From: Octopus sinensis
Lineage: Eukaryota
Assembly (NCBI RefSeq): GCF_006345805.1
Contig: NC_043001.1
Location: 132,060,001 to 132,124,000, forward strand
Direction: 5' to 3'
DNA: 64,000 bases
Shown: in pieces, positions 1,956 through 63,260 of the stretch
How positions within the stretch are numbered: position 1 is the stretch's first letter
How the letters are laid out: each line of letters opens with the position of its first letter
Notes under the pieces: model-generated
The model's input: only the letters and a program-made list of their open reading frames with translations
Databases searched by the model: none
What the model was told of the DNA's origin: nothing
Translations under genes and position numbers: made by a program

Positions 1956-2695
1956 GTTCCCTTTTGTCTCTTTCTCTTGTTAATCCATTGGAATTTAAAA
2001 GAAGAATTAGAAAAATAACACCTCTTGTATAGAAAATATATGATGATTGAGATTTTAATATTATAAAGAAATAGTAATTAAATTTATGCCAGTTTGTTTA
2101 CATCAAATTAATATTGTATGAGGTTATATTTCATGTTTTAAGCAGTATCTTTACAATATGAATAACTGTTTTGTATATTAATAAGGAAATAGGTAGATTG
2201 CAATAGGTAGATAAATTTAGAATACTGTCAAAAATATATTTATGAAACTATATATCAATAATGAAGTTCAAAAGTAATGTATATGAGTATCTTAAAATTT
2301 TGTTTTGCCTAAAGCCTAAAATGTTCTTTGAATTAGTTTTTAGTGTCAATTTTGTAATAAAACAGAAAAGAAATGAGTAGAGTTAACTTTCTAGTTTATA
2401 CTTGTGATATTCATCATATGTATTCATTAATTTTTGAAATATGATATTTAATAGAGATACATTGGCTACTTATGCAGTTTAGCCTCTCTTTTTTTTAATG
2501 TTTATGCTGTGTAGTATGAAAGTTTACGACTTCGAGACAATGCATAAGAAATAGAAAGTAGTTCAGTTCAATCCTAACCAAAAGACATGGAGATTAGCAA
2601 ACGATACTGTAGATGAAAAAAACAAAGGATTAGGATAATAATGTAATGAAATCTATGCTAACAATAATCCATTAACTCACATTAATAGCTTATCA

Positions 2696-2903
2696 TTAAC
2701 CCATTAGCATTCAGATTATTCTATCAAATATTATACTTATTTATTCCCATGTTTAATAATTAATCAGGCACATTGATATTTCAGTGATGTGATTGTTTAT
2801 ATTAAGAATGACATTGTAGGGTAGGTGAGAGAGGTCAGATTTGAACATAAAACAAGTGGAATATTTGGGCCAGTTATGGCCAGTTTAAATGCTAAAGGGT
2901 TAA
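2696..2903 (+). mobile_element. piggyBac-type MITE (TTAA target)
   Basis: TTAA-CCCATTAGCATT ... AATGCTAAAGGG-TTAA terminal inverted repeats; several related copies in the window. Confidence 0.8.
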
Positions 2904-3132
2904 TTTAACGGGGTGTCTGTAGCTCAGTGCTTATGTAAATGTGATATAACTGAACAAATTGGGCATTAGACTAACTATTCATAGCTCATGAGATCAGAAT
3001 CTTTTGCCAGCAGCTTATATTTCTGGCCAAAGTAATTTATGCTATGCCCAGCTAGTCAGTGCTGCAACACCTGGGGATTGGCACTACATCATTTATTGGT
3101 TTAGCAGATATAAATCTCTCATTTTTTTTTCC

Positions 3133-3358
3133 AACCCTTTAGCATTCAGATTACACTGTCAAGTTTAATACTAATTAATTTGCATTGCCTTGAATTAATC
3201 ATGCATTGTCTTGCAACTTTGATATTACAATGAAGTGATTGTATATTTTTAGAATGACATTGTAGGGTAGGTGTAAGAGGCCAGATGTTGACGGTTTGAA
3301 CATAAAAAAGATAGAATATTTGAGTTGGATATGGCTGGTTTAAATGCTAATGGATTAA
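3133..3358 (+). mobile_element. piggyBac-type MITE, second copy
   Basis: AACCCTTTAGCATTCAGATT ... TAAATGCTAATGGATTAA; same internal sequence as 2696-2903. Confidence 0.75.
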
Positions 3359-4204
3359 TGCCAAAAAAAAACAAAACAAAGACTAAATAACTGACACATA
3401 GAAACCCCTTGCATCCCAGAAGCATTTAAATTTTGCATTTTACTTCTGCTTGTAAGAAATTTTGCAAAGTTGGAAGAGTGTATGAGTGTGTGTGTGTGTG
3501 TGTGTATGAGAGAGAGAGAGAGAGAGAGAATATTCATTTTAATATATGACAAAATAATAACTTCACATTTTAAAAACTTTACATATATTCATTTGTTTTT
3601 ACTTAATTTTTCTATGCTGGCATGGATTTGCCAAAATACTTAGTATTGAAGCAATGTTTTACAGCTGAATACATTTTCTGTTGCTAGCCTTTATGTATTT
3701 TCATTTTTTTCTTTTTTTTCTGTTTTACTTGACTTAGAAACTAAAGAGAAAGCTAGAGAACGATTTCTTGATTTCTTGATAGGTAATTGTCAGCATAATA
3801 TCATTTTCTCTCAGCACTTTCATGCAAAGATGAAAAGTGTAAACATTGACACCCAACACCCACCCACCCACCCCACACACACACATGCATACATACAGGA
3901 TACATACCAACCAATCTGGAGCAAAGTGAGGTCGAAATTGAGATCTTGGGGAGAGAATGCAAATTCTTAATTTATATGCTACAAATGGTCACAATATCTA
4001 GGGCTACAAAAATCTGCAAGACCTTAAGATTTAAAGGATGATGGTTAAAACAAGATACTTTCCTTCTCGACCTTGCTACCAAGTAGGTGACCAGTCAAAA
4101 TTTACTCAAAATTAAAAAGAGAAAGAGAACATACATACACATATATACATATGTGTGTATTTATAAATTATTGCTATTAGTGATTGTAGTAGTAAATAGC
4201 AAAT

Positions 4205-5570: not shown

Positions 5571-5781
5571 AAAATACTTTCAGATTTACTACATTTGTTC
5601 TGGACAAATTGAAGAAGTATATATTTCTCTGATGCATTTCTGCTTCCATCATTCTTACCTCACTGATTACTATTTTTCTTAAGGGAAAAAATCATGGTTC
5701 TGAGGTTTTTAAAAAATTTTTATTGTGCATCCTGATATATTTTTTCCCACCGTCTTCTCTCTTTTTCAACTGGGGTAAACC

Positions 5782-6564
5782 TATTTCTTTATTACCCACA
5801 AGGGGCTAAACACAGAGGGGACAAGCAAGGACAGACAAACGGATTAAGTTGATTACAACGACCCCAGTGCGTAACTGGTACTTAATTTATCGACCCCGAA
5901 AGGATGAAAGGCAAAGTCGACCTCGGCAGAATTTGAACTCACAATGTAACGCAGACGAAATACCTATTTCTTTATTACCCACAAGGGGCTAAACACAGAG
6001 GGGACAAGCAAGGACAGACAAACGGATTAAGTTGATTACAACGACCCCAGTGCGTAACTGGTACTTAATTTATCGACCCCGAAAGGATGAAAGGCAAAGT
6101 CGACCTCGGCAGAATTTGAACTCACAATGTAACGCAGACGAAATACCTATTTCTTTATTACCCACAAGGGGCTAAACACAGAGGGGACCAGCAAGGACAG
6201 ACAAACGGATTAAGTCGATTACAACGACCTCAGTGCGAAACTGGTACTTAATTTATCGACCCCAAAAGGATGAAAGGCAAAGTCGACCTCGGCAGAATTT
6301 GAACTCACAATGTAACGCAGACGAAATACCTATTTCTTTATTACCCACAAGGGGCTAAACACAGAGGGGACAAGCAAGGACAGACAAACGGATTAAGTCG
6401 ATTACAACGACCCCAGTGCGTAACTGGTACTTAATTTATCGACCCCGAAAGGATGAAAGACAAAGTCGACCTCGGCGGAATTCGAACTCACAATGTAACG
6501 GCAGCCGAAATACCGCAAAGCATTTTGCCCGACGTGCTAACGATTCTGCCAGCTCGCCGCCTTT
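5782..6564 (-). mobile_element. SINE family D concatemer: one head plus four 183-bp units
   Basis: units start at 5782, 5965, 6148, 6331; tRNA-like head at the right end; 14-bp TSD AACTGGGGTAAACC at 5768-5781 and 6565-6578. Confidence 0.92.
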
Positions 6565-6721
6565 AACTGGGGTAAACCATATATCTCCTCTACAGCAAAA
6601 CACCAATTCTTATCCTTCTATCATGTTTCAACTTCTCACCTGCTATATAAAACCAACAACCTTAGTACTATACATCCTTCTGTTGATGGGTCTTGCCTTG
6701 AAAGTTATTTGGTAGTCCCAC

Positions 6722-10873: not shown

Positions 10874-10989
10874 CTAAAGAAAAGAAAACATATTTAGTTA
10901 ATGTTTAAACAAATAATTTTATTATTAATAATGAGTTGTTGAAGAGGTCACAAGATGTGTGATGAAAGATTTTAGACAAGGGACACTAA

Positions 10990-11059
<70 letters not shown>

Positions 11060-11060
11060 T
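10990..11060. repeat. (TAA)n microsatellite, target of the Dong-like LINE
   Basis: direct reading. Confidence 0.95.
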
Positions 11061-11740
11061 ATATTCACTGGGTAATTTGCAAAAACCTGGATTTGCCCCA
11101 TGAAAAAAACTGGTGGGAACACAATCCACCTCCAGTGCTTGAAAATGACCACATCTCACTCCTCTGGAACTTCACCATTCAAACTGACAGGAAGATAGAT
11201 GCAAATAGGCCAGACATCATATTGAAAGACTTCAGACAAAGAACATGCCTCCTCATTGATATGACTGTCCCAATCGATATAAACGTATCTGTCAAGACCT
11301 ACCAAAAACTGAGCAAATATAAAGATCTTGAAATAGAAATCAGCAAAATGTGGAAGCTGAAGACTAAAACAATACCTGTTGTCATAGGTGCCCTGGGAAT
11401 GATAGCAAAAGGGACTGATTGCTACCTAACTCAGATACCAGGAAACCCCACAATGGCAGAAATTCAAAAGATAGTGCTCATGGGAACTGCTCATATCCTA
11501 CGCAAAATACTCTCTATGTAATCCCAAGGTTTAAAACAAACTTTTTTTTATTTTTATTTTAACTTTTTATTTATTTATTTATTTATTTATTTTTTTTATG
11601 TATTAGACATTCACTAGTACAACACCAAAAAAAAAAAAAACCCAAATATATGGCACAGAACTTCCAACCTGTTGTCTCTTGAGGTCTCTGGGTGAGACTT
11701 GGAGCCAACTTGTACAGATATAAAGCAAAAGTCAAACAGA
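11061..11740 (+). mobile_element. 5'-truncated R4/Dong-clade LINE (restriction-like endonuclease domain plus 3' UTR)
   Basis: ORF 11093-11521 has LLWNFTIQTDRKIDANRPDII...LIDMTVP...KLSKYKDL...IPVVIGALG (RLE motifs); (TAA)n on both sides. Confidence 0.9.
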
Positions 11741-12904: not shown

Positions 12905-13118
12905 TGGTTTCAAATTTTGGCACAAGGCCAGCAAGTTTGAGAGAGGATGTAAGTCAATTACACTGACCTCAGAGCTCAACTGGTACTTATTTAATCGACC
13001 CCGAAAGGATGAATGGCAAAGTCGACCTCAGCGGAATTTGAACTCAGAACATAACGGCAGACGAAATAGAGCTACTCATTTCGCCCGGCGTGCTAACGTT
13101 TCTTCCAGCTTGCCGCCT
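12905..13118 (-). mobile_element. SINE family D short-tail variant with a young head
   Basis: GGCGGCAAGCTGG...GAGTTCAAATTCCG head and CATCCTTTCGGGGTCGA core on the minus strand. Confidence 0.85.
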
Positions 13119-16655: not shown

Positions 16656-16875
16656 GCGGCAAGCTATCAGATACGTTAGCACGCCGGGCGAAATGCGTAG
16701 CTGTATTTTGTCTGCCGTTACGTTCTGGGTTCAAATTCCGCCGAGGTCCACTTTGCCTTTCATCCTTTCGGGGTCGGTAAATTAAGTACCAGTTACGCAC
16801 TGGGGTCGATGTAATCGACTTAACCCGTTTGTCTGTCCTCTCTGTGTTTAGCCCCTTGTGGGTAGTAAAGAAATA
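16656..16875 (+). mobile_element. SINE family D monomer
   Basis: full head plus one unit; 14-bp TSD TATATTGATCCCAG at 16642-16655 and 16876-16889. Confidence 0.9.
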
Positions 16876-17399: not shown

Positions 17400-18600
17400 G
17401 CAATTGGGCCTGACAGTGTCCCTCCCATTACCCCCAATGAATCTCCTCAGTGCTAGCACCTATCTTTATCAAACACTTCAATCTCTCTCCCCTCCTTCTT
17501 TCTCTCTCCCCCTCTCTACTACCAGTCTATTGCCCTTCATTGCAGAAATCCCTATTGTGATGGAGACTGGTATTAATAACAATCTTATCTCTTCTTAACT
17601 AACAACAGCATTAGCTTTGTAGAGCTGCTAGAGACCTCCTCCTCTATGTCACTCAATACTTAGTTTTCATTCTTGAGAAATTTGGAAATTTGTGAACAAC
17701 AATTTTGTTACACTTGACATCAGCAAAGTATTCAACCATCTTTAGTATGCAATATCATATCTAAACTCTCCGTATATCAATCTCTCATCTTAGTTAGTTA
17801 GTTAGTTAGTTAATTTGGCTCAAAAGCAAATAGCAAGGCCATGTAGGGGGACATGGAGTTAAGTACAGGGTGGTGTTCATGTAAAGAGTTCAGGCCACTT
17901 GAGGTCAAGGGAGGCTTTGAACAAAGCGGTCGTCGGCATCTTCACCATCTCATCTGGCAGCTTGTTCCACGGATCTGCAACCCGGACGGAGAAAGCTCCT
18001 CTCCTTCGATTGAGATGAAATCGTCGCAGGTAGAGCTTTTCGGAATGACCCCGCAGCCGACGCTCTGGAGCAGGAGTGAAGAACAGCTCTTTCGAGAGGT
18101 TACACTTTCCGCTTATAATGTTGTGGGCGAGAATGAGATCACCACGGCGGCGGCGTTTTTCAAGAGAATAAAGGTTGAGCGTCCTCAGCCTTTCTTCGTA
18201 GGACAAATTTTTGAGACCATGAACCATGCGGGTAGCCAGCCTCTGGAATGGTAGCTTCTAGCTATTTTGCGCCACTTGTATGTGCTGACAGAGCTCTTCT
18301 GACCCACACTTTATCAACCCTTATGTAGTTGAAAGTTCAGTTTTTTTCCCCACGTGCTTTTTCATTTACATCAAAGATTTGGTCTGTCATCACTTCCAAC
18401 AATGCACATTCCTATCACTCTTCACTAACCTTTTATATATCTATATTTCATCCACAGCATTTGAGACACTTCATGAAAATAAATTAATCGCATTAATTTT
18501 ACTGATCTCAGAAGGTCTGCGAAACCATGAGCACAACACCATCCTAAGCCAAAATCCTTAAAAGATAAATAAACAAAACAACTAATCTGTATGATGATAT
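17400..18600 (+). mobile_element. very decayed LINE reverse-transcriptase remnant interrupted by a younger CR1
   Basis: YQSIAL.IAEIPIVMETGINN (~17520-17580) and TLDISKVFN (~17710-17736) resemble the RT motifs YRPIAL and LDISKAFD. Confidence 0.5.
17790..18250 (-). mobile_element. CR1 LINE 3' end
   Basis: ORF 17877-18227 LSYEERLRTLNLYSLEKRRRRGDLI...RGHSEKL...FSVRVADPWNKLP; (TAAC)n tail at 17790-17812. Confidence 0.92.
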
Positions 18601-29680: not shown

Positions 29681-29806
29681 CATGTTTGTATGTGTGCGAG
29701 TGGGCAGGGGGGCCATGCATGCATACATGTGTAAAAAAACACATGAACACTGAGAGACGCACTTAGATAAACTGCAACAAAAAGGTGACAACACAGCAAT
29801 ATCAAG

Positions 29807-30035
29807 GCGGCGAGCTGGCAGAAACGTTAGCACGCCGGGCGAAATGCGTAGCCGTATTTCGTCTGCCGTTACGTCCTAAGTTCAAATTCCGCCGAGGTCG
29901 ACTTTGCCTTTCATCCTTTCGGGGTCGATTAAATAAGTACCAGTTACCCACTGGGGTCGATGTAATCGACTTAATCCGTTTGTCTGTCCTTGTTTGTCCC
30001 CTCTGTGTTTAGCCCCTTGTGGGCAGTAAATAAAT
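29807..30035 (+). mobile_element. SINE family D monomer
   Basis: full head plus one unit; TSD AATATCAAG at 29798-29806 and 30036-30044. Confidence 0.92.
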
Positions 30036-31819
30036 AATATCAAGTAGCTGAAAGCGAAATTAGGTACTAAGTTCATAACAAAAGGAGACACAGCCATGTC
30101 TACAACAAAATACGATACTTTCTCATTCTTTTCCTCACTCTCATACGAAGAGCGAAAACCTAAAAGATTATTTCTTCAACCCTTACAGCAAATGACCTCT
30201 CCAGACTCTTCCAGAAGCTTTTCCCACTTTGTGCCATAGCCACTAGAAGATGATTTTGTAAAAAAAAAAAAAAAAAAATTGAAGCAAAATCAGTCTTGGT
30301 AATGGGTTTGAACTAATATTTTCTGATTCAGAATTCAGTTTTTGTATCTGACACTGGTGAAGTCTCTATTGTACGTAGAATATATTAATCATTTACTCTA
30401 TCAATGGACCAAACTCTTTATATTCTTGAAGACAGATTTCATTATAAGCAAAATAAATAGCTTTTGATAGCCTTTAACTCATCTAGCCATTCACATTGGT
30501 ACATTTCTATTTTTTCATGTCTCGGTATCAAGTGACAAGTTTTATATATTTATCTATTTATTTATTTTGGTTGGGTTTTTTTTTTCTACTTCATTGTATA
30601 TGTTCCAATTAAGATTAGCTATGTAGTAGCAAGAAAGTGCTTCTTATATATGCCTTTGAATATGATCCTCATTGTCACATCCAGTGAATACAAATATTTC
30701 AGAAGAAAACATTCCCAAAGTTAAGACAATGTCTCTTTTGGTGGCATGATAAGCAAAACAGTATTAGCATATTTATTCAATATTAAAGATAGTGCAAGGA
30801 ATTTCTTATCTAAATAAAACACTTTCTATTTTGATGCTCACTTTGAAAGAAAATGGAAATCAAGCTGAAACAATTTTTTGTCAAGGGGTAAGAGACTAAG
30901 AATGATAACTTCTGCTGCACAAATTATATCTATTTCTTTTATGCAAGTCACACTTTTTTTTTATAGTGTTGATACTGAATATCAGGGTAGTGCAAATGAT
31001 AAATTAAGTTATTTGATATTTATAGTGTATCATTTTGTGATAAGCAAGAAATCTTGCTAAACATCATATCTATGATAAAAATTACAGTACAATACTATTT
31101 TATATTTTTATTATATTTTTTTCAATACATGAAAGGAAAAAAGGTTTCTTATTTCATATACATTTTTAAAAATCTAATAAAATAAAATTTAGAATACCAA
31201 AAGTTCTTAATAGGATATACTTTGCAATTTCAGTTTATCAAAAAGGAAGCCAATTGCATTAGAATTAGTGAGAAATCAATATTTCTTTTAAATGTATGTA
31301 GATTAACTATGATCTGAAAACGACTAAAATTGCTACTTTTATCACCAACAAAAAAAGAAGATAGGTATTTGAAAAACAGAGATTTGACTAACTAAAAAAT
31401 ATAAATGTTTGATGCTTCACTTTTCAAAAGCGTAGTCTACACAAATATCTATATACATCTGTACAGTAGTTGATGGAAATTAGAACTGTACCTAATAATG
31501 ATTTAAATCATGTGTTTCTAGTAACATTTGTCACATAATAATTGTTTCAAACATAGGTGCATAGGCCAGAAATATATAAGATAACTAGCAGATCGACATA
31601 AGGACTAGGGTTCATTGCAATAATTCAAAGACTGAAACTAATAAAAGTGGTAAAAAGAATACAAATTAAAATAAAGTTCAAAAGGTTTTGTAACTTCCGA
31701 AGATACAACAGCTCTTCTAATATATTTGGCAGAGGACTAGTTTCTGAATCTAGTATAAAGTTGAAAATAATGACACCTGATGTTTTTAAAACCGAAGTTA
31801 ACAATGGTAATAATATTTT

Positions 31820-43299: not shown

Positions 43300-43530
43300 G
43301 CAAGCAGGCAGAATTGTTAAAATGCCAGACAAAATACTTAGTAGCATTTTGTCCATCTTTACGTTCTGAGTTCAAATGCCACCAAGGTTGATTTTACCTT
43401 TCATCCTTTTGGGATCAATGAAATGAGTACCAGTCTATTACATTAACTACTAGGGTTAATGTAATAGACTAGCCCCCCTCCCCCCAAAAAATTCAGGTTT
43501 TTTGCCTATAGTAGAAAGGATTATTATTAT
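43300..43530 (+). mobile_element. short-tail SINE family D
   Basis: GTTCTGAGTTCAAAT...CCTTTCATCCTTT...GCCTATAGTAGAAAGGA(TTA)n. Confidence 0.75.
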
Positions 43531-44189: not shown

Positions 44190-44415
44190 AAGGTGTCAAG
44201 CTGGCAGAATCATTAGCATGCTGGACAAAATGCTTGGCAGCATTTCATCAATCAATATGTTCTGAGCTCAAATTCCGCTGTGGTTGACTTTGCCTTTCAT
44301 CCTTTCAAGGGTCAGGGAAATAAGTACCAGTTATGCACAGGGGTTGACGTAGTCAACTTGCACCCCCGCCCCATAATTTCAGGCCCTGTGCCTATAATAG
44401 AAAAGATTATAATTA
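44190..44415 (+). mobile_element. short-tail SINE family D
   Basis: AAGCTGGCAGAATCATTAGCATG head, GACTTTGCCTTTCATCCTTTC core. Confidence 0.8.
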
Positions 44416-53147: not shown

Positions 53148-53366
53148 AAGGCAGTGAGCTGGCAGAATCGTTAGCACGTCGGGCGAAATGCGTAGCCATA
53201 TTTCGTCTGCCGTTATGTTCTGAGTTCAAATTCTGCCGAGGTTGACTTAGCCTTTCATCCTTTCGGGGTCGATGAAATAAGTACCAGTTACGCACTGGGG
53301 TCGATATAATCGACTTAATCCATTTGTCTGTCCTTGTTTGTCCCCTCTGTGGTAGTAAAGAAATAG
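53148..53366 (+). mobile_element. SINE family D monomer with a small tail deletion
   Basis: full head plus one unit ending GTAGTAAAGAAATA. Confidence 0.88.
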
Positions 53367-56363: not shown

Positions 56364-56731
56364 AATTCCATAAACAATTCTAGCAAAAAAAAAAAAAGAG
56401 GTAAACATAAGCAAGAAGTACTCAAAACTGACATATCACAAATGTGAACTCTTGGGCTATTTGTTCTGCAAAAACTATATACTCTCTTGCAACTAGTACC
56501 ATCAGAATTACTGTGAAACAACGACTAACCAACTAGCCAGCTGCAATATAAAATAACATAAATAAATTTGTACTGAAGTCAAGTCAATTGACCAAATTCT
56601 GACTCTGTAAACCTGAGTTCTTGTAGAAATTTAAGAAGTCTCAATTTTCTCATTTCTTAGTTTGTTAAAAAGATAATCTTTCATAATCTTCATTTTATAG
56701 TTCCTTTCCAGCATTTTTGTCTCAGAATATA

Positions 56732-57148
56732 TATTTCTTTACTACCCACAAGGGGCTAAACATAGAGGGGACAAACAAGGACAGACAAAGGGATTAAGTC
56801 GATTACATCGACCCCAGTGCGAAACTGGTACTTTATTTATCGACCCGAAAGGATGAAAGGCAAAGTCGACCTCGGCGGAATTTGAACTCAGAAAGTAACA
56901 ACAGATGAAATACCTATTTCTTTATTATCCACAAGGGGCTAAACACAGAGGGGACAAACAAGGACAGACATAGGTATCAAGTCGATTACATCGACCCCAG
57001 TGCCTAACTGGTACTTTATTTATCGACCCAAAAGGATGAAAGGCAAAGTCGACCTCGGCAGAATTTGAACTCAGAAAGTAACGACAGACGAAATACCGCT
57101 AAGCATTTCGCCCGGCGCGCTAGCGTTTCTGCCAGCTCGCCGCCTTAT
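56732..57148 (-). mobile_element. SINE family D dimer (head plus two 183-bp units)
   Basis: units at 56732 and 56915; 18-bp TSD TTTTTGTCTCAGAATATA at 56714-56731 and 57149-57166. Confidence 0.92.
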
Positions 57149-58139
57149 TTTTTGTCTCAGAATATACCTTACTTGACCTAAAATTCTTAGATACTATTTA
57201 TCATTTTTAGTAATATTTCCATCCCACCACACCTCTTTCGATTTAATAACTGATACAACATGATTAAATCCTTGCTTACAACACTCTTCTTCTGTAACAT
57301 CTTAGTTCATTCTTAGCATCTGCTTTACCATATTAAAAAAATTCATTTCTTTCATCTTCCCTCCTTGACACATTTTAGAACCTCAGATATTTTGCTGTCT
57401 TTCTCACTGATATACATGTTGGTATAATTTGCTCTTTTCAGAATTATTTAAATATTCAAATTTTTAATTAATTTGTTGTTTTCTAATGAAAAGCACAGAA
57501 AAGTACTTTAAATTCACCACAGCTTAAAGGAAAATGACGACATAAATTATTTAGGCTTTTTAGTAAGGATGGAAATAAGCAGCATGCATGGGTGAGTTTC
57601 TGGAATGATTTCATCATCTTAAGTAGTTTACAGAGAATAAACCACTCATCTGAGAAGCTGCTTCAGAAGATAGAGAATAAGGAAGGGAGAGGGATGCTGA
57701 GGCAGTTTACGAAGAGAGATTGACTTAAAAAGAAGATAAATGTGAGAGTGAGAGAGGGAAAGGGGTTGGGGCATGGCAAGAAAGTATAATAAATAACAGT
57801 ACTACTAATAAATACTTAGAGAAGAAAGTGGACAGTGCAACTCAAGATCAAGTCTCAAAGTTGTTACAGCAGGAAATCATCATTGCATTAGTCTTCGGGG
57901 GATATACATGTCTTCAAAATTTTTTATTATATGTTTATATTTCATGCATATCTTCAATTTCTCATCTCCCATGGAGACAGTAAAATTTAAAATAGAGCAG
58001 TTATATTTCTAAATGAGTACAAGCCAGCCTACTGTCAATGCTCATTTTTGGTTTTGTTGATTGTGGTGATAGTGGAAATGTGTTTATTTGTAAAAAAAAA
58101 AAATTACTTTCTCAGAAAAATAATATCCTTAAAAGATGC

Positions 58140-60731: not shown

Positions 60732-61806
60732 TAAAATATAAAATATTATCACTTGCATGTTATCTGGACACACGAGGTTCAATCAACTATATTCTCAAAA
60801 GACTGTCTTAACTATTGATGAAGTAGTGCGTAGTCCACTACTTTCTCAATTGTTTTTAACAATTCTGGTGATGTACTACGCAGTTAGAGTGACTTGTAAG
60901 CAGTCCAAATGGACAACCTACAATCCTAATCATTAGACATTTAGAAATATTTACTAAGTTGAAGGCTAGATATTACACCATATTTATTAAAAATTTCTCG
61001 TCTCCCACCTAAACAGTGATTAAACGTTTTAACTAATTTACCATATCTATAACCTTGTTTTACTAAATGTCTTAACAGTTTATCTATTCTTTCCAAAAAT
61101 CTATTAGTATTATTCATAATAGCACTATACCTGATAATCTGTCCTTAAAAAACACCATAACCTATAAAAGAAGGAATTCTACTACTGAACCATAGCACTG
61201 AAGCTACTTGGAAACCAAAATCTTGTTTTATTATAAATGTCAGTACATATCTCATTATTATCCTTAATTACTAAATTGACATCTAAATAATTAATATTCT
61301 TTATATTATTACCATTTCTGGTGGCCAAGAGCTTTATAGAATTCATGAACAAGAAATTCTAGTTTAGGATTAAATTAATGGAGATCAAGGTAACATAAGT
61401 ATGTTAGAGAGGGAAGAAAAATTCATGGAAGTTTTGTAGATGATATATGGAATCTTCTATATATGGTTAGAACCAAAAAATAATAAATAAAAGGAAGCAT
61501 GAATAAAATAAGCAGAAAGATCTATCAAGCTGAAAGAGCGACAATGAATGAACATTATCAATTGAAAAAGGAGGAGGGTGTAGAATAAAAATCTAATGTT
61601 TTTTTTTTCTTTTCTTTTTTTTTTAAAGGTGGAAACTATCAATGGGAGGCACACTGAACTCGGGATATATTTTTATAAGTAAAAATTCAAAGAAGCCATA
61701 ATTAGGTATAATATATAATCTATGTATCTGCAACATCCATTAAGTTGTTTAAGCCAAGTTTTTTCTTGCACATAGGTCTTTAAGAAAAAAGAACTATAAA
61801 TATATC

Positions 61807-62580
61807 TGTTTCTTTCTAAAGAAACATAGAGAGGACAAACAAGGACAGACAAACGGATTAAATCGATTATATCAACCCCAGTGCATAACTGGTACTTAAT
61901 TTATCGACCCTGAAAGGGTGAAAGGCAAAGTCGACCTCGGCGGAATTTGAACTCAGAACGTAAAGACAGACGAAATACCTATTTATTTACTACCCACAAG
62001 GGGCTAAACACAGAGAGGACAAACAAGGACAGACAAACGGATTAAATCGATTATATCAACCCCAGTGCATAACTGGTACTTAATTTATCGACCCTGAAAG
62101 GGTGAAAGGCAAAGTCGACCTCGGCGGAATTTGAACTCAGAACGTAAAGACAGACGAAATACCTATTTATTTACTACCCACAAGGGGCTAAACACAGAGA
62201 GGACAAAAAAGGACAGACAAACGGATTAAGTCGATTACATCGAACCCAGTGCATAACTGGTACTTAATTTATCGACCCTGAAAGGGTGAAAGGCAAAGTC
62301 GACCTCGGCGGAATTTGAACTCAGAACGTAAAGACAGACGAAATACCTATTTATTTACTACCCACAAGGGGCTAAACACAGAGAGGACAAAAAAGGACAG
62401 ACAAACGGATTAAGTCGATTACATCGACCCCAGTGCATAACTGGTACTTAATTTATCGACCCTGAAAGGGTGAAAGGCAAAGTCGACCTCGGCGGAATTT
62501 GAACTCAGAACGTAACGGCAGACGAAATACGGCTACGCATTTCGCCTGGCATGCTAACGTTTCTGCCAGCTTGCCGCCTT
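61807..62580 (-). mobile_element. SINE family D concatemer: head plus four units (184-bp period; distal unit has an altered tail)
   Basis: junctions at about 61980, 62164 and 62348; TSD TATAAATATATC at 61795-61806 and 62581-62592. Confidence 0.92.
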
Positions 62581-62589
62581 TATAAATAT

Positions 62590-63260
62590 ATCATCATCAT
62601 CATTATTTAACGTCCACTTCCCATACTGGCATGGGTTGGACAGTTTGACATGGAGGTGGCTAGCAGGGAGCTGTCAAGACTCTGATTGTCTGTTGTGGCA
62701 TGGTTTCTACAGCTGGGTGCCCTTCCCAATGCCAACAACTTAACAGAGTGTGCTGGGTGCTTTTTTACATGCCACAAGCATGGATGCTTTTTAAGTGGTA
62801 CCAGCTCCTGAAAGGGCAAGCCTTTATGTGTGGAAGACAGCAACTTTTCCATATACATATGTAGATAGATATAGATATACATACATACATGCATGCATAC
62901 ATACATGCATACATATTGCTCATTAACTTTTTAGTCACTTCCTTTTACAAATGTTTAATTGATAATATTATTTTATCAAATCATCAAACTGAATGCCATT
63001 CGTGAATCATCATCATCATCATCATCATCGTTTAACATCTGCTTTCTATGCTAGCATGGGTTGGGCGATTTGACTGAGGACTGGAGAATCAGATGGCTGC
63101 ACCAGGCTCCAATCTGATTTGGCAGATTTTCTACAGCTGGATGCCGCCCTTCCTAACGCCAACTACTCTGAGTGTGCAGCGGGTGCTTTTATGTGCCGCC
63201 GGCACGAGGGCCATTCTGGGTACTGGCAATGGCCATACTCAAATGGTGTTTTTTATGTAC
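62590..63260 (-). mobile_element. two RTE 3' UTR remnants (62590-62850 and 63008-63260)
   Basis: (CAT)n TTTAAC...CATGGGTTGG...CTACAGCTGG motifs. Confidence 0.8.

What the first reader, a model, noticed from the sequence alone, without database searches (positions are those of the whole stretch)
5768..6578. SINE-D concatemers with an invariant junction at the tRNA-head hairpin, found at three independent loci
Seen: arrays at 5782-6564 (4 units), 56732-57148 (2 units) and 61807-62580 (4 units), each bounded by a single TSD of 14, 18 and 12 bp; monomers occur at 16656, 29807 and 53148. In SINE sense every internal junction reads ...AAA(G/T)AAATAG|GTATTTC(G/A)TCTG. The repeated unit therefore restarts exactly at the 3' edge of the loop of a 12-bp head hairpin (CGGGCGAAATGC-GTAGCC-GTATTTCGTCTG in the 29807 monomer), keeping the B box and dropping the A box. 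The tail end GAAATA can pair with TATTTC in place of the lost 5' arm. Inference: the concatemers could come from site-specific processing of the SINE RNA in this loop with circularisation and rolling-circle reverse transcription (retrozyme-like), from programmed RT template jumping at the hairpin, or more simply from a dimeric master copy with later unit expansion.
Basis: partly seen in the sequence, partly recalled or inferred. Interest (0 to 1): 0.72.

Follow-up and report, generated by a model that had tools for sequence, protein, structure and literature searches.

The report
SINE that stacks inside itself
These chains of a very common short jumping element are real and share one exact joint across the genome; a LINE jumping gene sits at that same base in the element's head, so new copies likely land inside older copies and lengthen them in place, not by the circular-RNA route first proposed.

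Summary
The three arrays, their TSDs and the fixed joint are as described. The exact 27-nt joint occurs 20,803 times in the genome.

The joint is an insertion site, not an RNA-processing site. A young LINE sharing the SINE's tail lies at this same base (head position 48) in 120 of 139 exact tail matches. SINE copies are nested there with TSDs, and two other fixed joints exist.

A rolling circle does not fit: 47 of 78 adjacent units share no rare variant, and many chains end in an older sister family. In those chains the last unit and, weakly, the outer TSD are older than the first unit. That favours units added in place, the cDNA joining the resident head by homology (inferred, about 0.55). 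Re-copying of read-through composites is the main rival. Long arrays, including window arrays 1 and 3, also show local DNA duplication.

No RNA reads were available. The scan noted this system before on other DNA of this genome; new here are the dating tests and the G-versus-C contrast at the joint.

The parts
6565..6578 (-). Array 1, TSD copy before the head (14 bp)
6331..6561 (-). Array 1, unit 1: full SINE (family D) with tRNA-like head; head hairpin at about 6531-6502
6148..6330 (-). Array 1, unit 2, starts at head position 48
5965..6147 (-). Array 1, unit 3
5782..5964 (-). Array 1, unit 4, identical to unit 3 (recent local duplication, inferred)
   Evidence: distance 0.0
5768..5781 (-). 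Array 1, TSD copy after the tail; begins with GGT like the joint
56732..57144 (-). Array 2: dimer of units with different subfamily alleles, joint at 56915/56914; TSD copies at 57149-57166 and 56714-56731; site empty in organism E
61807..62578 (-). Array 3: four units sharing rare variants; units 2-4 begin with family-C-type letters; units 1 and 2 share a T6 run; joints at 62348, 62164, 61980; TSD copies at 62581-62592 and 61795-61806
16656..16875 (+). Family D monomer with 13-bp TSD
29806..30036 (+). Family D monomer, used as first reference
53148..53351 (+). Family D monomer (aligned part), shortened tail, followed by GGTTTT

Best explanation
The fixed joint sits at position 48 of the SINE's own head, where a young LINE with the same tail and other SINE copies are inserted, so the chains likely form when new SINE copies are reverse-transcribed into resident copies and likely join the old head by homology, adding one head-less unit in place. 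Steps: (1) Shown: position 48 is an insertion site for SINE and LINE. (2) Inferred: the LINE's endonuclease nicks there and its RT copies the SINE RNA from the shared tail. (3) Inferred: the SINE RNA runs on past its tail into its old landing site (GGUAUUU...) and pairs with or templates the first target bases, which would explain why SINE joints have G and never C at 48 and why tail subtype predicts the landing word. (4) Inferred: the cDNA carries the head sequence, so it anneals to the resident head just upstream; the product keeps one head (old or overwritten), one old outer TSD and one more unit. Where this join does not happen an ordinary nested insertion with its own TSD remains; such hosts are often diverged. 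(5) Shown as a pattern, mechanism inferred: arrays then lengthen by local DNA duplication, as in window arrays 1 and 3.
For: LINE at the site: L009 has a 3' end matching the SINE tail (28 of 34), a weak zf-RVT hit upstream (E 0.07), 40 scored copies at 99-100%, and 120 of 139 exact tail matches run into head position 48. Nested SINEs: 206 exact places; 15 of 30 loci classed as nested, host head 79% and new head 94% identical to consensus (n=11), with private letters duplicated on both sides in L141, L157, L160. Other joints: position 15, 1,053 places; antisense GGTAC site, 315 places, with TSDs. Tail subtype predicts the next bases: 13/2 against 4/47, p=1e-8; unique flanks only 9/1 against 4/17, p=3e-4. 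Base 48 is G in 236 of 246 SINE joints and C in none, while 63 of 228 heads have C and 59 of 100 listed LINE joints have C (counted by eye). Independent units: 47 of 78 adjacent pairs share no rare variant. In D+C chains the last unit is older than the first, 6.4% against 2.8% (n=25, p=3e-5), and 58 distinct C units form no sibling sets. TSD mismatch: D+C chains 0.145 (0.095-0.205, n=18), C monomers 0.145 (0.075-0.225, n=7), D monomers 0.065 (0.04-0.095, n=63); p=0.044 for D+C against D monomers. Precedent for cDNA annealing to upstream target: R1 and R2 (PMC2718515, passages).
Against: The TSD clock is weak: intervals touch, the parser kept 18 of about 58 composites, and with another estimator D+C TSDs scored better than C-monomer TSDs (21 of 25 against 15 of 27 found, p=0.044) and did not differ from D monomers (p=0.22). 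Heads of D+C chains often look D-type: G43 in 3 of 16 against 0 of 7 C monomers, D-type letters at 61-64 in at least 17 of 25; this needs frequent overwriting of the old head. No age gradient in 38 other non-nested arrays (6.2 against 7.4 changes, p=0.19). Window array 2 is wholly absent from one contig of organism E, which fits a single insertion as well. The LINE found is younger than most SINE copies, so it need not be the one that mobilised them; its endonuclease and clade were not examined. Most composite loci were chosen by exact patterns on one chromosome.
Confidence: 0.55

Rival explanations
1. A SINE nested at position 48 is transcribed by Pol III through the old body, and the composite RNA is re-copied to new sites from the distal tail. 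The joint has the same origin, but chains move as a whole.
For: Nested mothers exist. The D consensus has no T4 terminator. Heads mostly follow the first unit. The older last unit is also predicted. Array 2 is absent as a whole in organism E.
Against: No sibling sets among 58 distinct C units although only about 206 exact nested places exist against 2,283 joints with a C-type start (patterns not equally sensitive). Outer TSDs of D+C chains look as old as C. First- and last-unit divergence do not correlate (rho 0.08, n=15). No clear TSD around 11 composites with non-SINE sequence just upstream of the joint (these may be later deletions).
Confidence: 0.28
2. RT starts on one SINE RNA, stops at position 48 (cut loop or pause) and jumps to the 3' end of another SINE RNA by microhomology.
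For: Explains unrelated units, one young head and the tail-specific joints. The site lies at the loop of a real hairpin.
Against: No copy truncated at 46-51 among 74. The same base is a DNA target with TSDs and a LINE landing site. The last unit is older than the first. The antisense joint cannot arise this way.
Confidence: 0.08
3. One dimeric master seeded the joint, or slippage between GGT at head 48 and the GGT-starting TSD duplicates a monomer; everything else is VNTR-like expansion.
For: 21 of 78 adjacent pairs share 2 or more rare variants against 36 of 20,503 background pairs. Arrays of five or more units show nested or higher-order sharing. Array 3 shares a T6 run between units 1 and 2, which a Pol III read-through RNA would be unlikely to carry. 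This holds as a second step and may be the whole story for array 1.
Against: Cannot give chains of up to four different subfamilies (L005, L141) or unique, aged C units.
Confidence: 0.07
4. The head loop is cut, a 183-nt circle forms and is copied by rolling-circle RT (retrozyme-like).
For: Fixed unit ends; near-identical units in some arrays.
Against: No Rfam match up to E 10. No CUGANGA core on either strand, and the circular unit folds no better than shuffles, z +0.67. The circle lacks the head, yet 60 of 74 elements start within the first 10 bases. Most adjacent units are unrelated.
Confidence: 0.02

Closest known systems
SINEU with Tx1-Mar LINEs of crocodilians (Kojima 2015, PMC4494074; passages)
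   Same: A SINE and a LINE share one target inside another repeat; sequential insertion gives tandem SINEs.
   Different: There the target is a Mariner transposon and tandem copies are whole and separated by a TSD. Here the target is the SINE's own head and most chains have one head and one outer TSD.
TSD1-(SINE)n-TSD1 arrays of the blood clam S. broughtonii (PMC11481361; passages)
   Same: First unit with a full tRNA head, following units cut at the same head position, one outer TSD.
   Different: About 3% of SINEs there, internal tails truncated, and unequal recombination suggested. Here 21 of 74 sampled family-D elements (3 of them the window's own arrays), tails whole, units often unrelated, and a LINE at the joint.
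SINE-derived satellites of squamates (PMC10702118; part 1 of 5 and passages)
   Same: Tandem units shorter than the SINE; longer arrays more uniform.
   Different: In the passages seen they are explained by unequal recombination or insertion into the same locus, without a defined target base or partner LINE.
R1 and R2 5' joining (PMC2718515; passages)
   Same: cDNA carrying upstream target sequence anneals to the target and gives precise 5' junctions; R1 makes 14-bp TSDs.
   Different: These are autonomous elements in rDNA; here a non-autonomous SINE would carry the upstream homology because it is its own target (inferred).
Non-LTR retrozymes (PMC7229834; passages)
   Same: Short tandem repeats of 150-450 bp in animal genomes.
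   Different: They are defined by hammerhead ribozymes and circular RNA; no hammerhead was found here.

Membership tests
tRNA-derived SINE (SINE2) | Short dispersed repeat with 11-23 bp TSDs | tested here: met
   49 of 110 full-length elements passed the TSD score
tRNA-derived SINE (SINE2) | tRNA-like head with A and B boxes | tested here: inconclusive
   A- and B-box-like words read by eye from the sequence (box consensus recalled); ARAGORN and Rfam found nothing
tRNA-derived SINE (SINE2) | 3' tail shared with a LINE | tested here: met
   28 of 34 identity with the 3' end of the L009 element; related tails on other non-SINE elements
tRNA-derived SINE (SINE2) | Pol III transcription | not testable with these tools
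   no raw RNA reads listed
MetaSINE superfamily | 66-bp Meta domain behind the head | tested here: inconclusive
   Resemblance is recalled. The domain sequence was not in the passages read; two motifs were not found in the supplement text, and one supplement file could not be searched
Target-specific Tx1-clade LINE (partner) | More than 20% of copies flanked by one target repeat (criterion in PMC4494074) | tested here: met
   120 of 139
Target-specific Tx1-clade LINE (partner) | RT phylogeny within Tx1 and an APE endonuclease | not tested
   Only 0.9 kb of the 3' end was held; zf-RVT hit below cut-off. The Tx1 label comes from earlier notes and recall
Non-LTR retrozyme | Type I hammerhead in each unit | tested here: not met
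Non-LTR retrozyme | Monomeric circular RNA | not testable with these tools
SINE-derived satellite (sSat) | Tandem units shorter than the SINE, at least four middle monomers | tested here: inconclusive
   Window arrays have at most two middle units; arrays of 7-9 units elsewhere meet it

The most novel reading that the evidence does not exclude
A SINE that retrohomes into itself: a LINE endonuclease opens the SINE head at one base, the SINE RNA's read-through end helps choose and template the site, and the cDNA overwrites the old promoter. Old copies would gain a fresh head and one more unit per event, giving a direct, repeatable route from interspersed repeat to minisatellite at tens of thousands of loci.
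Probability: 0.45. Interest if true: 0.72.

Novelty: new variant of a known kind. Interest (0 to 1): 0.52.

Why it matters
SINE-derived tandem arrays are known in clams and reptiles, but in the papers read their origin is left to unequal recombination or repeated insertion. Here a defined target base, a partner LINE and datable intermediates make the step from mobile element to tandem repeat testable. If in-place addition with head overwriting holds, SINE loci are not single dated insertions, which affects repeat dating, copy counts and the use of SINEs as phylogenetic markers in this lineage. It would also show target choice partly inherited through the RNA's 3' extension.

Tried and rejected
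Rfam scan of array 1: nothing up to E 10. ARAGORN: no tRNA. RNA runs: no RNA holder listed, contigs only; no evidence either way on expression, ends or circles.

The orthologue test on a D+C chain was not obtained, so whether the C monomer stands alone in relatives is open. The only orthologue result is the empty site of array 2 in one contig of organism E.

The 30 best RT loci of the genome had no blast match to the SINE. A search for non-SINE sequence before the exact D joint gave mutated SINE tails and 11 loci without clear TSDs; the LINE was found instead by a loose tail search in loci already held.

An age gradient among D+D arrays was not detected. A first TSD estimator did not separate the classes. 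A regex failed and was redone; one search crashed and was redone.

In one search, five high-sharing pairs were dropped: four are one locus fetched twice, and one pair (L218, L220) has identical unit and flank at two coordinates, read as a duplication.

Rejected: pure DNA-donor gene conversion as the main route, because C-type letters at both 61 and 63 are kept in only 2 of 18 first units. Literature: ten searches listed no paper on a SINE or LINE targeting this head; one search was swamped by unrelated hits, and subscription journals and Repbase were not searched.

Full report
1. Observation. The three arrays, their TSDs (14, 18 and 12 bp), the three monomers and the fixed joint are in the window as described. 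The window lies in a 2.72-Gb genome; that it is an octopus is my inference from recall and from earlier notes, not a tool result. The exact 27-nt joint occurs 20,803 times, the reversed control 0 times. I sampled 120 evenly spaced 10-kb stretches plus the window, 1.264 Mb. Of 74 elements led by a family-D unit, 53, 12, 5, 3 and 1 had one to five units; three of the multimers are the window's own. Sixty of the 74 start within the first ten bases and none at positions 46-51. TSDs mostly start right after AAGAAATA, so the unit restarts at head position 48.

2. The joint is a DNA target. A pattern for old head, short gap, new head matches 206 places. Of the first 30 loci, 15 were classed as nested (11 in a head, 4 at an existing joint), 7 as tandem heads and 8 as other. 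Host heads average 79% identity to consensus, new heads 94% (n=11). Private letters of the host are repeated on both sides in L141, L157 and L160. Two further fixed joints exist: at head position 15 (1,053 places) and antisense at GGTAC (315 places), the latter with clear TSDs. Tail subtype predicts the following bases, also in unique flanks (p=1e-8 and 3e-4).

3. The partner. Earlier notes of the scan pointed to a Tx1-like LINE in the SINE head. I tested this on loci already held. L009 has a non-SINE element whose end matches the SINE tail at 28 of 34 bases. Upstream it has broken frames with a weak zf-RVT hit. All 40 scored copies are 99-100% identical. Of 139 exact matches to its tail, 120 continue into head position 48. 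Among the 100 listed, 59 have C, 40 G and 1 T at that base (counted by eye). SINE joints have G in 236 of 246 and C in none, although 63 of 228 heads have C. So the LINE takes either allele, while the SINE either needs G or writes it from its RNA. I did not establish the LINE's clade or endonuclease, and it is younger than most SINE copies.

4. Where the units come from. Of 78 adjacent D-unit pairs, 47 share no rare variant, 10 share one and 21 share two or more; background is 36 of 20,503. L005 and L141 chain four different subfamily types. Many chains end in a sister family C with another tail. A C-type start follows the D joint at 2,283 places and its own head at 768; some of these units have D tails. 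In 25 non-nested D+C chains the C unit is 6.4% diverged and the first D unit 2.8% (non-CpG, p=3e-5). Among 63 C units (58 distinct), 11 pairs share three variants against 6.9 in shuffles (97.5th percentile 12), so no siblings were seen. TSD mismatch was 0.145 for D+C chains, 0.145 for C monomers and 0.065 for D monomers (n=18, 7, 63; p=0.044). A first estimator did not separate the classes and ranked D+C TSDs as better kept than C-monomer TSDs. Heads of D+C chains carry the D-only G43 allele in 3 of 16, against 22 of 62 D monomers and 0 of 7 C monomers. No age gradient was found in 38 other arrays (p=0.19).

5. Second step. Arrays of five to nine units show shared and higher-order variants. 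Window arrays 1 and 3 are of this kind; units 3 and 4 of array 1 are identical, and units 1 and 2 of array 3 share a T6 run. Array 2 joins two subfamily types. One contig of organism E (run X19, record 21) spans its site with about 60 bases where the window has 489, so the site is empty there; this dates the array but does not choose between routes.

6. Mechanism. Shown: position 48 is an insertion site for SINE and LINE; units are mostly unrelated; terminal C units are older and unique; local duplication follows. Inferred: nicking by the LINE enzyme, a role for the RNA's 3' extension, and 5' joining by homology that hides the nested structure. Annealing of cDNA to upstream target is described for R1 and R2 (PMC2718515, passages). 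I put the joint as a target site at about 0.9, in-place addition as the main route at 0.55, re-copying of read-through composites at 0.28, template jumping at 0.08, master plus VNTR alone at 0.07 and a circle at 0.02. The first two probably both occur.

7. There is no ribozyme, no special stability of the circular unit (z +0.67), no head-less insertions at the joint and no general identity of units. The hairpin is real; it may coincide with the site or shape it at DNA level, which I did not test. RNA could not be examined.

8. Known relatives and novelty. The architecture is described in the blood clam (PMC11481361, passages) and as SINE-derived satellites in squamates (PMC10702118, part 1 of 5 and passages). 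A SINE and a LINE sharing a repeat as target are described in crocodilians (PMC4494074, passages). Retrozymes (PMC7229834, passages) fail on the defining ribozyme. I also saw passages of PMC4758252, PMC4824008 and PMC5804259 and part 1 of 3 of PMC13282606; none of what I saw describes these chains. One supplement of PMC4824008 could not be searched and may hold the Meta-domain sequences. Ten searches listed no paper on self-targeting in this family, but the library lacks most subscription journals. The scan itself noted this system many times on other DNA of this genome; those notes are leads, not support. Verdict: real, a new variant of a known kind, interest 0.52.

Noticed in passing
L143-L149, L154 (G000 C1 and C2); also listed on C7, C8, C9: Tandem repeats of the head alone (positions 1-63 plus AA, 64-67 bp), up to eight copies, with the same joint GTCTGCCGAA|GGCGGCG at several loci.
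   Followed up: partly
L194 minus strand, about 3033-1824; related sequence in L070 about 2360-3380: An element with an ORF1-like frame (CCHC-like motif, no Pfam hit) and a D-like tail ends directly on SINE head position 15 in L194.
   Followed up: partly
window 12945-13118, 43300-43434, 44190-44359 and many sampled loci: At least two older sister SINE families share the head and middle but have other tails (...GTGCCAAAATTTGAAACC...CCTATAGTAGAAAGGATTATT), often followed by (ATT)n.
   Followed up: partly
L250 minus strand, 3746-2367: A chain of five or six units mixing position-15 and position-48 joints and ending in family C.
   Followed up: no
L242, 1015-1809 and 8375-9179: Two SINE clusters about 7 kb apart are near-identical inverted copies of each other.
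   Followed up: no
L321-L350, unplaced contigs: The best RT matches are APE-RT LINEs, 24 of 30 from one near-identical family, all on small unplaced contigs; several are followed by GGTATTTG-like words. They could be very young or foreign DNA.
   Followed up: no
window 10976-11521 (+) and 17847-18254 (+): Two frames that look like retroelement remnants; the second matches a frame in L070.
   Followed up: no
L124, L159, L277, L042; window 61807-62347: Units that start as one family and end as the other (D start with C tail, or C start with D tail), pointing to crossovers or priming inside the shared body.
   Followed up: partly
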